NCBI GenBank assembly: GCA_044892505.1 | Contig: CM097882.1 | Coordinates: 590,860,001-590,924,000, forward strand | Length of the DNA: 64,000 nt | Origin: Schmidtea nova | Taxonomy: Eukaryota | Reading direction: 5' to 3' | Part shown: piece by piece, positions 7,093 through 13,542 of the stretch | Numbering within the stretch: position 1 is the first letter of the stretch | Layout: every line of letters starts with the position of its first letter | Program-made: the position numbers and the translations under genes | Notes under the pieces: model-generated | Databases searched by the model: none | Told to the model about the DNA's origin: nothing | Seen by the model: the letters and a program-made list of their open reading frames with translations, nothing else

Positions 7093-7506
7093 AATAAGTT
7101 GAATTTCGGATTGTTGTTTTGTTGGTCAAATGTGGATTTTTGTTTAAAATAAACGATTCTGGAATATTTTGGCATTTTCTGGTTTTTACGTATTTGAAGT
7201 ATTCTTAAAACGATCGAAAGGCTTATTGGGTCCGAAAGAAGCAGTAAGATTCTGTGAAATTCACGGAGATTTAGATCAACTAGAAAGATAAATGGCATTG
7301 CAAATGATGAGATCAGGCGCTAGGAATATTATGTTTGCTACGGATGTAGCATCTCGTGGTCTCGATGTTCCAGATTTAACGAAAATTATGAATTATGATT
7401 TCCCGAAAAATATCGAGGAATATGTTAATCGTGTAGGCAGAACAAGAATGATATGACCAATGTGGCCCCCCCCGGGTGGGGCGTCGATGTTCTTTCAGTT
7501 AAAACA
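7093..7506 (+). repeat. 5' LTR of the Bel/Pao element (5'-truncated; contains a DEAD-box fragment)
   Basis: About 96-97% identical (by eye) to 13095-13542 apart from a 34-bp deletion; ends in CA immediately before the PBS. Confidence 0.8.
7220..7450 (+). pseudogene. DEAD-box helicase C-terminal fragment (DDX43-like) with a stop codon and deletion
   Basis: IHGDLDQLER*MALQ...[13 protein letters not shown]...[18 protein letters not shown]. Confidence 0.88.
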
Positions 7507-7524
7507 TGGTAGCAGAGCGTGGTT
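7507..7524 (+). promoter_or_regulatory. Primer-binding site complementary to initiator tRNA-Met
   Basis: TGGTAGCAGAGCGTGGTT; the first 11 nt match the conserved tRNAiMet 3' end (...CTCTGCTACCA); abuts the LTR-terminal CA. Confidence 0.88.
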
Positions 7525-7934
7525 CCCTTGGGGGGGCACGCACAAATTCTCGGAATGATAGCCCAGGTGAAGATGCTTCCAAGATTGATCCATCCTCACC
7601 ACAAGAAGGTCCATTTAAATATTATTTAACTTTAATATTATATGGAGAAGGGAGCCGGAGAGTTCACAATAGAAAACTCAAGGAACCAGCTCCAAGCATG
7701 GATGAACAGGCGTTTGGATCTTGGAGGTGCCGAAAAAGTGAATATTATTTTGAATTAAACAATTATTTTGAATTGGACATTTATGTTTTTGTGAAAACTT
7801 ATTACTTTTACAATTTATATGTAATATTATCAGTTCCTCCCTCCCCTCTTCCCTTTGCAATGTTTTGTGGTGGGTTTGGCTCACTAAGGGACCGGAAAAG
7901 GTGCTGCTATGAGCCCCAGCATTCTTTTCAATTA

Positions 7935-8386
7935 GGAATCTTTGTAAAAACTTTAACGGGAAAAATCATTACTTTAGAAGTTGAATGCAGCGATACAATT
8001 GAAAGTGTGAAAGCTAAATACAAAATAAGGAAGGCATTCCACCAGATCAGCAAAGATTGATTTTTGCCGGTAAACAGTTAGAAGGTGGAAGGACCTTATC
8101 AGATTATAAAATTCAAAGAGGATCTACGCTAAATTTGGTTTTACGTCTTCGAGGCGGCATGCAAATATTTGTGAAAACATTAACAGAGAAAACTATTTCC
8201 CTTGAAGTTGAATCAAGCGACATGATAGAAAACCTAAAGGAAAAAATCCGAGACAAAATTGGAATTCCGCCGGTGCAACAAAGAATTATTTATGCTGGCA
8301 GACAATTAGAAGGGTACAAAAAGTTTTCAGACTATAAGGTTGTTAATGGATCGACCATTCATTTGGTCCTGCGTTTAAGAGGAGGT
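7935..8386 (+). pseudogene. Diverged di-ubiquitin (Ub1 with a 1-nt frameshift near 8017; Ub2 intact at 8159-8386) fused to Bel/Pao Gag
   Basis: IFVKTLTGK...[17 protein letters not shown]...LRLRGG. Ub1 has ~9 and Ub2 23 substitutions versus canonical ubiquitin (hand count). Confidence 0.95.
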
Positions 8387-11300: not shown

Positions 11301-12840
11301 AACAAAACGGAATTTCTTGAGCTTATTAGCCAGAGTTCTTGACCCACTTGGTTTGATCGGAGCATTTATTGTTCGCGGGAAAATGATTATGCAAAAATAT
11401 GGCTTTCAGGTGTAGACTGGGATGAAGAATTAGGCGCAGAGATTTGTCTCGAGATTCATCAATGGTTAGACGAAACATCAGAGTTAATAATGATCAAGAT
11501 TCCACGATGTTTAATTAAGAAATCACTGAACAATTGGAGTATTAACGTGTTTTCGGATGCTTCGATTCAAGCGTATGGCGCAATAGTGTATATTAGAGAA
11601 GAGCACGAAGATGGCATACGAACTATTATGGTAGCATCAAAGTCAAAGGTGGCGCCTATAAAGATGGTGAGCATACCAAGGATGGAATTAATGGCCGCTT
11701 GCTTAGGACTGAAACTTAGTAAGAAGGTGACAAAAGCATTGGAGGTTGAAATGAATGCAGTGACGTTTTGAATCGATAGTATGAATGTGTAATATTGGGT
11801 ACGCCAACACGCAAGAAATTATAAGCCTTTTGTCGCAAACCGCGTAGCAAATATTCAAGAAAATACGATTGCCTCACAGATATGTTCCAACAAAAGAAAA
11901 TCCAGCAGATGCGGAAATGTGCGAGTCAAATCAGCTTTGGCGTATCGGACAAGAGTACTTACAGAAGGAGGATGACCAGTGGCCTAAAACTACCTTGGTG
12001 GGAGGTGACGATCAAAAGCAGGAAAGAAGAAATACAACAAAGGTTACAATAGGTAATAAAATAGTAATGGAGTCACCGTACCATGTAAATTGTTTCATAC
12101 CGGAAACATATTCGAATTGGAGAAAGTTAATTCGGGTGCGAGCATGGATACATCGTTTTATTCAAAATAGTAAAGTTAAAGTAAGTCAACGGGTTCATGG
12201 TGAATTAACAGTCGACGAGATAATGAAGGTGAAATTAATAGTGATACGTGAGACACAGCAGAAGGCTTTTGGGAAGGAATATAACAGTTTGAAGAAGATG
12301 AAAACTATTCCTGAAAATAACGAGTTACGGAAATTAAATCCATATTTGGATGAAGAAGGAGTGATGAGGAGTAACAGCAGGCTCTGTCAAGCAAAATGGT
12401 TGTCAAGAGATGTGAAATATCCGATCATTTTGGCTGAGAAAAGTTGGGTAACTTGGTTGATTATTGGAGATTATCACCAACGAAGATTTCATTATGCTGG
12501 GGTAAATCACATTCTCAGTGATATAAAGGAAAAATATTGGATATTGCGGGCAAAGACGAAAATCAAAGAATATGAAAATCACGGCTATGTATGTAGGAGG
12601 AGAAAGGCTGTAGGTTTGAGTCAATTGATGGCACCTATTCCGGACTTTAGATTAACAAAACCATTAAGAGCATTTTCAAGAACATCAGTTGATTTTGCAG
12701 GGCCGTTTGAAACGATACAAGGTCGTGGAAAAAACCGTGTCTTTCTGTGTCTTTGATTGAGAAGAACGAGTTGTAGTAGTGCAGGTAAAAGATAAATTGT
12801 TAACAAGATCGACAAGTAACCTATGTCCAATCGATTTCGA
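8387..12840 (+). pseudogene. Bel/Pao gag-pol remnant (DUF1759-like Gag, 3 Zn knuckles, protease, RT, RNase H, integrase with core deleted)
   Basis: IFDGKVEEFETW; CFKC..H..C, CYNC..GH..C, C..C..KHH..H; LLDDAS; LPHFPVVR..TTKVRVVFDAS; YLDD; FSDAS..AYGA; SIPRMELMAA; ENPAD; VDFAGPF; terminal VVQVK..LLTRSTSNLCPI. Confidence 0.95.
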
Positions 12841-12906
12841 GTATTGACATTGCCACAAAAAAATGAGAAAAGCTGAGCATTGCATTGGGGTTGACACTAA
12901 TGTGTC

Positions 12907-12919
12907 AAAGGGGGAGGAA
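12907..12919 (+). promoter_or_regulatory. Polypurine tract of the Bel/Pao element
   Basis: AAAGGGGGAGGAA immediately followed by TG, ~80 bp after the integrase end. Confidence 0.8.
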
Positions 12920-13542
12920 TGGATAATCATGGCTCAAAATTTGAGCCCATCTGTGTGCGCATGGTTTTTTTTGGAAAATTTGGTTGAAATCGCGTCTGTG
13001 TGCGCATGTCAACAGGGATTGTTTGTTTATTTTGGATGATAGTTTCTTATGTTGGTTTTGCATTAATATTTTAATTTCGATTTAATGGATTATTAATAAG
13101 TTGAATTTCGGATTGTTGTTTTGTTGGTCGAATGTGGATTTTTGTTTAAAATAAACGATTCTGGAATATTTTGGCATTTTTTGGTTTTTATGGTATTTGA
13201 AGTATTTTTAAAACGATCGAAAGGCTTATTGGGTCCGAAAGGAGCAGTAAGATTCTGTGAAATTCACGGAGATTTAGATCAACAAGAAAGAGAAATGGCA
13301 TTGCAAATGATGAGATCAGACGCTAGGAATATTATGTTTGCTACGGATGTAGCATCTCGTGGTCTAGATGTTCCAGATTTAACGAAAATTATGAATTATG
13401 ATTTCCCGAAAAATATCGAGGAATATGTTAATCGTGTAGGCAGAACAGGTCAAACTGGTGAAGCTTATACCTTCATGAACAAGAATGATATGACCAATGT
13501 GGCGCCCCCGGGTGGGGCGCCGATGTTCTTTCAGTTAAAACA
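12920..13542 (+). repeat. 3' LTR of the Bel/Pao element (~623 bp, TG...CA)
   Basis: Starts after the PPT; ends TTAAAACA like the 5' copy; followed by unrelated hAT sequence. Confidence 0.75.
13220..13497 (+). pseudogene. DEAD-box helicase C-terminal (HELICc) fragment, DDX43-like, inside the 3' LTR
   Basis: IHGDLDQQEREMAL...[15 protein letters not shown]...[19 protein letters not shown]; motif VI degenerate; no N-terminal RecA domain. Confidence 0.9.

What the first reader, a model, noticed from the sequence alone, without database searches (positions are those of the whole stretch)
7093..13542. Bel/Pao LTRs that contain a captured DEAD-box (DDX43-like) helicase fragment
Seen: the repeat ending at the PBS and the repeat starting after the PPT both contain helicase motifs IV-VI, downstream of an AATAAA (U5-like position). 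They end with a GGCGCCCC-CGGGT-GGGGCGCC hairpin (perfect in the 3' copy) and AAAACA. The 5' copy has a stop and a 34-bp GAACA-flanked deletion. Knowledge: the closest motif match I recognise is DDX43, a germline/piRNA-related helicase. Inference: host sequence built into an LTR, a possible source of small RNAs against the host gene.
Basis: partly seen in the sequence, partly recalled or inferred. Interest (0 to 1): 0.7.

Follow-up and report, generated by a model that had tools for sequence, protein, structure and literature searches.

The report
Host gene pieces inside retrotransposon LTRs
A jumping gene in a flatworm-type genome carries a spliced piece of a host RNA-helicase gene inside its end repeats, and its relatives carry pieces of other host genes at the same spot, all in one reading frame, which likely makes them a disposable front part of the element's coat protein that would be cut off at a built-in ubiquitin.

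Summary
The true LTR is 623 bp (window 12920-13542, TG...CA, polypurine tract before it). The 5' LTR (7092-7506) lacks its first ~173 bp. The helicase piece (13191-13498) is 89-95% identical to a host DDX43-like gene elsewhere on the chromosome. It spans that gene's exon junction without the 3.1-kb intron, so it came from spliced mRNA. It is a family trait: at least 30 independent insertions carry it, and five solo LTRs have perfect 5-bp target duplications.

The larger finding is that this is one case of a clade-wide design. Sister LTRs hold pieces of eEF2, AdoMet decarboxylase, SAM synthetase, prenyltransferase, CCT, HECT, ribonucleotide reductase and a nuclear receptor at the same place. 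All are sense-oriented and in the frame that reads across the primer-binding site (GSRAWFP) and a leader into ubiquitin repeats and Gag. One copy with near-identical LTRs has a single 1380-codon frame that starts at an ATG inside its 5' LTR.

Translation from the LTR, release of Gag at ubiquitin, and capture by template switching are inferred. The small-RNA idea remains untested.

Earlier notes of this scan reported coding LTRs and ubiquitin-like domains in other (gypsy-type) elements of this genome, not this system.

The parts
7092..7506 (+). 5' LTR, truncated: corresponds to LTR positions 174-623
   Evidence: upstream DNA is unrelated; other copies carry 174 more bases
7192..7444 (+). helicase piece in the 5' LTR, broken by TAA at 7289-7291 and a 34-bp deletion at 7444/7445
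   Evidence: 94% identical to host coding sequence nt 609-861
7507..7528 (+). primer-binding site TGGTAGCAGAGCGTGGTTCC, read GSRAWFP in the shared frame; followed by a run of 7 G (7530-7536) where the frame shifts in this copy
   Evidence: 103 exact LTR-end/PBS junctions in the genome, control 0
7529..7937 (+). leader that is coding-like in relatives (about 135-150 codons between PBS and ubiquitin)
   Evidence: 0.012 stops per codon in this frame against 0.062-0.074 in the other two
7938..8158 (+). ubiquitin repeat 1 (frameshifted near 8030)
   Evidence: PF00240 in ORFs 7503-8060 and 8018-8590
8159..8386 (+). ubiquitin repeat 2, ends RLRGG
   Evidence: PF00240 E=1.4e-41; translation
8387..9700 (+). 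gag (DUF1759 at 8775-8080 region 8775-9080; two CCHC knuckles about 9460-9634), frameshifted between 8590 and 8715
   Evidence: DUF1759 29 bits, cut-off 25.4; knuckles read by eye
9793..12756 (+). pol remnants in several frames: aspartic protease 9793-10023 (below cut-off), RT region 10465-11415, Pao peptidase_A17 region 11302-11765, integrase zinc part 12457-12609 (below cut-off); integrase core missing by a ~620-720-bp deletion near 12754
   Evidence: (L011 and L013 hold extra DNA at that point)
12907..12919 (+). polypurine tract AAAGGGGGAGGAA
   Evidence: same tract before 3' LTRs L008, L011, L013
12920..13542 (+). complete 3' LTR, 623 bp, TGGATAATC...TTAAAACA
   Evidence: flank GAAGG at 13543-13547
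13190..13542 (+). open frame from ATG 13190 through the helicase piece to the LTR end (MVFEVFLKRSKG...FFQLKQ); in a 5' LTR it would run on into GSRAWFP
13191..13498 (+). captured host DEAD-box piece (host protein residues ~258-366, motifs IV-VI), intron-less, with a 9-bp loss at the exon junction
13499..13521 (+). 23-nt G+C-rich filler forming the 8-bp hairpin; found only in helicase-type LTRs
   Evidence: 13 of 167 loci, all helicase type
13522..13542 (+). ancestral LTR terminus GATGTTCTTTCAGTTAAAACA shared with eEF2-type LTRs
40248..40662 (+). 5' LTR of the second copy (tandem unit 2)
46577..47199 (+). 3' LTR of the second copy (tandem unit 2)

Best explanation
The helicase sequence is a piece of spliced host mRNA built into the LTR of a Bel/Pao retrotransposon family, and it likely serves as part of a translated, disposable N-terminal extension of Gag.

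Shown:
- The piece lies in both LTRs, in sense orientation.
- It lacks the host intron and moved with the element.
- Its reading frame continues through the last LTR bases and the primer-binding site (..[11 protein letters not shown]..).
- In related copies that frame runs on through a ~135-150-codon leader into one to three ubiquitin repeats ending RLRGG, and then into Gag.
- Sister LTRs of the same clade hold other host coding pieces at the same place and in the same frame.

Inferred:
1. Transcription starts upstream of the cassette, so the cassette is R/U5.
2. Ribosomes start at an ATG in the LTR. In AdoMetDC, SAM-synthetase and prenyltransferase cassettes this is the host's own ATG. In the window's short LTR it is the ATG at 13190.
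3. Host deubiquitinases would cut after RLRGG and free Gag. The part in front therefore only has to stay open, not keep any particular sequence.
4. New cassettes arise when reverse transcriptase, having begun at the tRNA primer and copied the first ~20-150 nt of U5, switches at short homologies to a co-packaged host mRNA and back. The change is then copied into both LTRs. Only in-frame coding pieces survive, because a stop would end Gag translation.
For: Capture from mRNA:
- The host gene lies at G000:C1:502.96 Mb. Its exon ends GRTGRAG|GTAAG, is followed by a 3.09-kb intron (...TTTCAG), and the next exon begins RTGEAYTF. The LTR pieces run across this junction.
- The pieces are 81.8-95.6% identical to the spliced host sequence. 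They share one 3' breakpoint (nt ~922) and two 5' ends: nt 435 or 428 in 8 places and nt ~600-609 in 31.
- The 5' junction of the long form is an 8-nt overlap, TCAAGTTA, between a SAM-synthetase cassette and the helicase mRNA.

Mobility: 5 of 26 examined LTR loci are solo LTRs with perfect 5-bp duplications.

Same slot, other genes:
- Of 25 non-array relatives sharing the leader, 11 have GTP_EFTU (eEF2), 1 has SAM_decarbox and 3 have Helicase_C in sense ORFs.
- A scan of 77 antisense ORFs gave no host domain above cut-off inside an LTR.
- Among the first 30 of 103 exact LTR-end/PBS junctions, 28 have an ORF of at least 55 aa in the GSRAWFP frame that passes the PBS. The other two frames give 2 and 1, though one of them is closed by the TAG inside the PBS.
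- 24 of the 30 hold a Pfam host domain in that ORF: Prenyltrans 12, Cpn60_TCP1+HECT 5, HECT 3, Ribonuc_red_lgN 3, GTP_EFTU 1, SAM_decarbox 1. That list sums to 25, because L165 and L159 repeat loci already counted in the first sample.
- The AdoMetDC piece sits in both LTRs of one element.

Continuity of the frame:
- L066 has 0 stops in the 330 codons after the PBS.
- 8 of 20 loci keep one frame from the PBS into the ubiquitins with at most 2 stops.
- Stops are 5-6 times rarer in this frame than in the other two.
- L145 has one 687-aa frame and L161 one 680-aa frame, each reading HECT piece - PBS - HSP70 piece (E=1.4e-79) - ubiquitin - Gag.
- The copy L167 has LTRs differing at 2 of ~868 positions and a GATAT duplication. 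It holds one 1380-codon frame that starts at an ATG 345 nt into the 5' LTR.
- L054 holds a 201-aa ATG-started frame, SAM-synthetase N-terminus plus helicase, that runs to the LTR end.

Published mechanism: microsimilarity template switching by LTR elements including Pao/BEL, with 2-26-bp filler at junctions (PMC5131818, passages).
Against: - There are no RNA or protein data, so the transcription start, poly(A) site and start codon are all unknown.
- In the helicase subfamily itself, none of the 4 distinct 5' LTR copies is uninterrupted. The window and L063/L124 shift frame in the G-run after the PBS. L065 has a stop in the third PBS codon. L067 has local shifts and one stop.
- A methionine in the leader (..ILGMIAQ..) is widely kept and could be the real start.
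- dN/dS does not separate cassette from coding parts clearly. Medians are 0.81 (eEF2) and 0.63 (AdoMetDC) for cassettes and 0.72 for the leader, against 0.42-0.58 for ubiquitin and 0.47-0.69 for gag.
- The low stop counts could partly be a relic of the coding origin, and tblastn favours stop-free frames.
- L138 has one stop between the LTR frame and the Ub-Gag frame.
- The cobW piece of L150 and the pieces in L141 and L147 are out of frame.
Confidence: 0.6

Rival explanations
1. Untranslated passenger. The host piece is neutral filler in U5, picked up by template switching. Translation starts at a methionine in the leader or just before ubiquitin, and the cassette has no role.
For: Cassettes evolve near neutrality: dN/dS is 0.63-0.81, and many copies have stops or frameshifts. 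Leader methionines exist. Capture without function is the published norm (PMC5131818, passages).
Against: It does not explain why every cassette type found is sense-oriented and in the PBS/Gag frame: 28 of 30 junctions, with 2 and 1 in the other frames, and in-frame host-host joins (MAT-helicase, CCT-HECT, zf-C4-eEF2). It also does not explain why a copy with near-identical LTRs has one 1380-codon frame from an LTR ATG. The methionine before ubiquitin is replaced by T in L082, L083 and L084.
Confidence: 0.2
2. Small-RNA source. LTR copies in antisense contexts give piRNAs or siRNAs that act on the host helicase mRNA, or the host-like sequence shields the element from silencing.
For: Feasibility only. 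Each of the 41 LTR-borne pieces shares an exact run of 32-92 nt with the host mRNA, and 423 of 488 captured host positions are covered by at least one exact 28-mer. In planarians, SMEDWI-3 degrades many neoblast mRNAs guided by near-perfectly matching antisense piRNAs (PMC6824462, passages). The genome looks flatworm-like.
Against: No small-RNA data could be laid. The idea does not predict the frame and strand rule. The older cassettes are too diverged for perfect pairing: eEF2 differs from its host gene at 30-42% of bases.
Confidence: 0.1
3. Functional decoys. The encoded host fragments (helicase C-domain, eEF2 G-domain half and others), released as X-ubiquitin fusions, are selected to interfere with host pathways.
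For: The frames are open. The eEF2 cassette differs from the host gene at nearly all synonymous sites (pS 0.66-0.83) but at only 18-34% of non-synonymous sites.
Against: Among copies, dN/dS is 0.63-0.81. The pieces are arbitrary truncations of domains and are swapped freely between subfamilies. The pS/pN pattern against the host gene can also come from a diverged source gene.
Confidence: 0.07
4. Local duplication of a host pseudogene that merely looks like an LTR pair.
For: The element does lie in a 33-kb tandem duplication.
Against: Dispersed copies occur on three chromosomes. TG...CA ends, five solo LTRs with 5-bp duplications, PBS and polypurine tract are all present.
Confidence: 0.01

Closest known systems
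LTR-mediated retroposition (Tan et al. 2016, Genome Res; PMC5131818, abstract and passages read)
   Same: A partial, intron-less host mRNA copy is joined to an LTR element (Pao/BEL families included) at short microsimilarities, sometimes with 2-26 bp of filler. Several host genes can be joined. There is no poly(A) tail. The copies are sense-biased.
   Different: There the retrocopy lies between discontinuous LTR-element parts, mostly as a one-off dead product. Here the piece is inside the LTR itself, next to the PBS. It was inherited by families of tens to more than a thousand copies, and it obeys a reading-frame rule tied to Gag.
Bs1 of maize and other gene-carrying LTR elements (named in PMC5131818 and PMC6431247 passages; details recalled)
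   Same: An LTR retrotransposon carries fragments of several host genes as a chimeric frame.
   Different: In those cases the captured DNA is internal, replacing gag-pol or lying downstream of pol (PMC6431247 passages). It is not in the LTR upstream of an intact gag.
Yeast Ty1 (recalled, not checked here)
   Same: The Gag start codon lies in the 5' LTR and the primer-binding site is inside the Gag reading frame.
   Different: Ty1 has about 14 LTR-encoded codons of its own sequence. It has no host-derived cassette and no ubiquitin.
Ubiquitin insertions in cytopathic pestiviruses (recalled, not checked here)
   Same: Host ubiquitin coding sequence captured by RNA recombination supplies a site where cellular ubiquitin hydrolases cut the viral polyprotein.
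   Different: That is an RNA virus, the insertion is a sporadic pathogenic variant, and the cut frees NS3. Here ubiquitin is a fixed clade feature before Gag (17 of 25 relatives), and cleavage is only predicted.
Burro/GYPSM1 giant gypsy elements of planarians (PMC6431247, section 7 passages)
   Same: Flatworm LTR elements whose polyproteins hold many host-like domains.
   Different: They belong to the gypsy superfamily. Their domains sit within a huge ORF1 and are not reported in the LTR or as interchangeable cassettes.
Repeat-borne gene fragments giving piRNAs against host genes, such as AT-chX versus vasa in Drosophila (recalled)
   Same: A repeated copy of a DEAD-box helicase fragment could yield small RNAs against the parent gene.
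   Different: No small-RNA evidence exists here.

Membership tests
Bel/Pao LTR retrotransposon | LTRs with TG...CA ends and a short target-site duplication | tested here: met
   TGGATAATC...AAAACA; perfect 5-bp duplications at 5 solo LTRs and at L167
Bel/Pao LTR retrotransposon | tRNA primer-binding site after the 5' LTR and polypurine tract before the 3' LTR | tested here: met
   TGGTAGCAGAGCGTGG at 7507 and AAAGGGGGAGGAA at 12907-12919; the matching tRNA was not identified
Bel/Pao LTR retrotransposon | Pao-type pol marker (Pfam Peptidase_A17) and Bel/Pao-type gag (DUF1759) | tested here: met
   PF05380 E=1.3e-30; PF03564 29 bits (cut-off 25.4)
Bel/Pao LTR retrotransposon | complete PR-RT-RH-IN pol | tested here: not met
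   In the window copy pol is in at least 6 frames. Protease and integrase hits are below cut-off and the integrase core is deleted. A fuller relative, L124, has 679- and 309-aa pol frames.
DDX43-type DEAD-box helicase (source gene) | Helicase_C with motifs IV-VI | tested here: met
   PF00271 E=1.3e-20 in the window and 2e-28 in the long form L054
DDX43-type DEAD-box helicase (source gene) | closest relatives are DDX43 proteins | tested here: inconclusive
   8 of the 21 hits after P0001 are named DDX43, but the best solved structure is DDX23 at 79.6 bits against 66.9 for DDX53. No tree was made.
DDX43-type DEAD-box helicase (source gene) | N-terminal KH domain | tested here: inconclusive
   16 of those 21 hits have PF00013. 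No KH match within 8.5 kb upstream of the host gene by tblastn. It may lie further away or be absent.
LTR-mediated retroposition product | intron-less partial copy of a host mRNA | tested here: met
   The piece spans the GRTGRAG|RTGEAYTF junction without the 3.09-kb intron.
LTR-mediated retroposition product | microsimilarity or filler at the junctions | tested here: met
   8-nt TCAAGTTA at the 5' junction; 23-nt filler at the 3' junction
LTR-initiated Gag frame (Ty1-like layout) | one open frame from an ATG in the 5' LTR across the PBS into Gag | tested here: met
   Met in relatives: L167 1380 codons, L145 687, L161 680. Interrupted in all 4 helicase-type 5' LTR copies.
LTR-initiated Gag frame (Ty1-like layout) | transcript start upstream of that ATG and its use by ribosomes | not testable with these tools
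   no RNA holder listed
Ubiquitin-fusion processing | canonical ubiquitin fold sequence ending in RLRGG directly before the released protein | tested here: met
   PF00240 E=1.4e-41...[16 protein letters not shown]
Ubiquitin-fusion processing | cleavage by deubiquitinases | not testable with these tools
   needs a bench assay

The most novel reading that the evidence does not exclude
By placing ubiquitin in front of Gag as a host-cut release site, a Bel/Pao clade has turned its R-U5, primer-binding site and leader into a translated cargo bay. Any in-frame piece of co-packaged host mRNA can be swapped into it. The LTRs thus keep a fossil record of the mRNAs present where the element replicates. 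They shuffle host exons into new chimeras (SAM synthetase-helicase, CCT-HECT, HECT-HSP70). They also spread hundreds to thousands of host-coding copies that could seed gene-targeting piRNAs.
Probability: 0.35. Interest if true: 0.9.

Novelty: new variant of a known kind. Interest (0 to 1): 0.78.

Why it matters
Capture of host mRNA by LTR elements is known as a rare, usually dead-end accident. Here it is a repeated, rule-bound feature of a successful clade. At least nine host genes are sampled at one LTR slot. Copy numbers reach at least 766 candidates for eEF2 and at least 1292 for AdoMet decarboxylase.

If the ubiquitin-release reading is right, it shows a simple way for a retroelement to tolerate, and keep renewing, arbitrary coding sequence at its 5' end. 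That would be a natural exon-shuffling device.

It would also explain where abundant host-coding repeats in this genome come from. It makes one question in flatworm biology directly testable: whether gene-targeting piRNAs arise from transposon-borne gene pieces.

For annotation, these LTRs will be miscalled as pseudogenes or gene fragments of housekeeping genes.

Tried and rejected
RNA evidence:
- The look-up of sequencing runs listed no RNA holder.
- Runs X19-X22 behave as DNA contigs.
- Of X4, X13, X15 and X17, two laid nothing. The other two laid one contig each, and these continue into host helicase coding sequence, so they are the host gene of related organisms and not the LTR.

Helicase subfamily: the PDB sequence search did not settle it.

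Coding-constraint tests by pairwise dN/dS were inconclusive because most copies are decayed.

Intron tests for other cassettes:
- The search for the host AdoMetDC gene failed. All 118 scored PF01536 matches are LTR cassettes covering profile positions 2-238.
- The host eEF2 gene is one 849-codon frame, so it is uninformative.

A homologue search with the PBS-leader-Ub-Ub protein was swamped by polyubiquitin.

Hairpin as a selected structure: among 24 places the perfect form occurs in L029, L011 and the window's 3' LTR with its array copies. The rest carry uncompensated mismatches. I treat it as junction filler. A tRNA-derived origin was considered but not tested.

Rejected readings:
- Helitron-type capture, because of the TG...CA ends, 5-bp duplications, PBS and polypurine tract.
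- Local pseudogene duplication.

Literature: four searches and one on planarian Pao elements listed no paper describing host-gene cassettes in LTRs in frame with a ubiquitin-Gag. The BEL/Pao survey PMC3118150 has no occurrence of 'ubiquitin'. Supplements were not consulted.

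
Full report
**1. The observation**

The window holds two direct repeats, 7092-7506 and 13094-13542. The aligned blocks are 96-98% identical. The frame through the 3' copy hits Pfam Helicase_C at E=1.3e-20.

The AATAAA, the terminal hairpin, the AAAACA end, the stop and the 34-bp GAACA-flanked deletion in the 5' copy are all present as described. TGGTAGCAGAGCGTGG follows the 5' copy.

The borders are not as described. A polypurine tract (12907-12919) and a TG start (12920) lie 174 bp upstream of 13094. 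Other copies carry these 174 bp in 5' as well as 3' LTRs. The LTR is therefore 623 bp (12920-13542), and the window's 5' LTR is truncated.

The internal part is a decayed Bel/Pao element:
- DUF1759 gag, Pao Peptidase_A17 at 1.3e-30, pol in many frames, and the integrase core deleted.

**2. It is a family trait, and the piece came from spliced mRNA**

The 449-bp repeat has 41 listed matches on three chromosomes, out of 69 candidates of which 40 were scored. Ten of these belong to a 33.15-kb tandem array that duplicated the whole element at least five times.

Five of the 26 loci examined are solo LTRs with perfect 5-bp target duplications: GATGG, CTCAT, AATAG, TACAC and AATTA.

The best protein match is P0001 at 84% identity. 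Of the next 21 hits, 16 have KH+DEAD+Helicase_C and 8 are named DDX43.

P0001 maps to C1:502.96 Mb at 96% identity. There the exon ends GRTGRAG|GTAAG. A 3.09-kb intron follows, and the next exon starts RTGEAYTF. The spliced host sequence is open for about 445 codons. All LTR pieces run across this junction without the intron. The window's version has also lost 9 bp there.

Among the 41 LTR-borne pieces:
- Identity to the host is 81.8-95.6%.
- The 3' breakpoint is shared (nt ~922).
- The 5' end is nt 435 or 428 in 8 places, nt 479-480 in 2, and nt ~600-609 in 31.

This fits one capture followed by an internal deletion that gave the window's short LTR.

**3. Relatives lack the helicase but hold other host genes**

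Of 25 non-array loci that share the leader and PBS (77-95% identical), only 3 have the helicase. The others share only the LTR start and the last 10-22 bp.

Their sense-strand LTR ORFs hit other host domains:
- GTP_EFTU in 11 loci. The sequence is an eEF2 N-terminal part; the host eEF2 is an 849-codon gene.
- SAM_decarbox in 1 locus, at 6.3e-35.
- zf-C4 fused to the eEF2 piece in 1 locus.

As a control, 77 antisense ORFs were scanned. This gave no host domain above cut-off inside an LTR. The only hits were a zf-CCHC about 1 kb upstream in L073 and a sub-threshold ribonucleotide-reductase hit in the flank of L070.

The AdoMetDC piece has at least 1292 candidates and the eEF2 piece at least 766 candidates in the genome. 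The AdoMetDC piece sits in both LTRs of an element with 96.5%-identical LTRs.

The 150 bp before the long helicase piece come from an LTR type with a SAM-synthetase cassette. The join is in frame, at an 8-nt overlap TCAAGTTA. L054 holds the complete 201-aa ATG-started frame: SAM-synthetase N-terminus, then helicase, running to the LTR end.

**4. The frame rule**

Reading the PBS as GSRAWFP gives the frame of every cassette. In relatives the same frame runs on through a leader into Ub-Ub-Gag:
- L066 has no stop in 330 codons after the PBS.
- 8 of 20 loci keep a single frame from the PBS into the ubiquitins with at most 2 stops.
- Stops are 0.012 per codon in this frame, against 0.062-0.074 in the other two.

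An unbiased sample supports this. The 22-nt LTR-end/PBS junction occurs 103 times, and the reversed-pattern control occurs 0 times. Among the first 30 along chromosome 1:
- 28 have an ORF of at least 55 aa in this frame that passes the PBS. The other frames give 2 and 1, though one of them is closed by the TAG within the PBS itself.
- 24 carry a Pfam host domain in that ORF: Prenyltrans, Cpn60_TCP1+HECT, HECT, Ribonuc_red_lgN, GTP_EFTU or SAM_decarbox.
- The exceptions are L141 and L147 (shifted frames), the cobW piece of L150 (another frame), and L146, L156 and L164 (no domain).

Two loci each hold one long frame of the form HECT piece - PBS - HSP70 piece - ubiquitin - Gag: L145 (687 aa) and L161 (680 aa).

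The same element as L161, read further as L167, has:
- LTRs differing at 2 of ~868 positions.
- A GATAT target duplication.
- A polypurine tract.
- One 1380-codon frame that begins at an ATG 345 nt into the 5' LTR and includes DUF1759.

**5. Reading**

The helicase piece, like the other cassettes, is most likely part of a translated N-terminal extension of Gag. That extension only needs to stay open, because ubiquitin ending in RLRGG would let host deubiquitinases free Gag.

This explains several observations together:
- The strand and frame rule.
- The in-frame joins between host pieces.
- The near-neutral evolution of cassettes: dN/dS 0.63-0.81, against 0.42-0.69 for ubiquitin and gag in the same decayed copies.
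- The free swapping of cassettes between subfamilies.

Capture during minus-strand strong-stop synthesis would account for the position next to the PBS, the sense orientation, and the copying of the change into both LTRs. Microsimilarity switching is published for LTR elements, Pao/BEL included (PMC5131818).

Transcription start, start codon, cleavage and the capture step are all inferred. In the helicase subfamily no 5' copy is intact.

**6. What stays open**

No RNA data were available.

The small-RNA idea is feasible for the young helicase cassette, which shares exact runs of 32-92 nt with the host mRNA. It is much less feasible for eEF2, which differs from its host gene at 30-42% of bases.

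The genome is flatworm-like. The best named eEF2 hits are flatworms at 73-77% identity, and earlier scan notes suggested a planarian. In planarians, PIWI-guided cleavage of coding mRNAs is published (PMC6824462, passages).

L031-L033 end exactly at the helicase 3' breakpoint, without the LTR terminus. This is unexplained.

Noticed in passing
window 1-30343 versus 33150-64000: The window is two units of a tandem repeat of about 33.15 kb, 99.9% identical. There are at least five units on the chromosome, judged by LTR spacing. One ~500-bp length difference lies at 11984 against 45141-45642, inside the element's pol.
   Followed up: partly
G000:C2:196.19-196.33 Mb: A tandem array, period 1844 bp, of at least 27 copies of an intron-less ~398-codon DEAD-box frame, 36% identical to P0001.
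   Followed up: no
G000:C1:502947001-502977000 (L089, L053, L088): Two tandem DDX43-like paralogues lie here. The public protein P0001 fuses the end of one with the start of the next.
   Followed up: partly
G000:C1:334788992 (+) and C1:334931251 (-): Two inverted copies of the 849-codon eEF2 gene lie about 142 kb apart, with an AdoMetDC-type LTR match at C1:334936354 nearby.
   Followed up: no
L031, L032, L033: Three loci hold the helicase piece, two of them with the complete SAM-synthetase-type LTR part before it. Each ends exactly at the helicase 3' breakpoint (..ACCAAT or ..ACCAAG) and is followed by unrelated DNA. There is no hairpin, no LTR terminus and no clear target duplication.
   Followed up: partly
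window 7530-7536 and the same place in L063, L064, L124: A G-run just after the PBS varies in length between copies, and this is where the LTR frame and the leader frame fall out of register. It could be real decay or a homopolymer error of the assembly.
   Followed up: no
L082:647-1333: One LTR frame joins a nuclear-receptor zf-C4 piece to the eEF2 piece. L096 joins SAM-synthetase central domain to a BAR_3 piece. L150 has a cobW piece before the ribonucleotide-reductase piece.
   Followed up: partly
window 6522-6613 and 6625-6716: Two 92-nt direct repeats, 83% identical and 103 nt apart, lie just upstream of the truncated 5' LTR.
   Followed up: no
L063:278-637: A Proteasome-subunit-like frame (PF00227, 2.9e-09) lies 240 bp upstream of a helicase-type 5' LTR. 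It is probably flanking host or repeat DNA.
   Followed up: no
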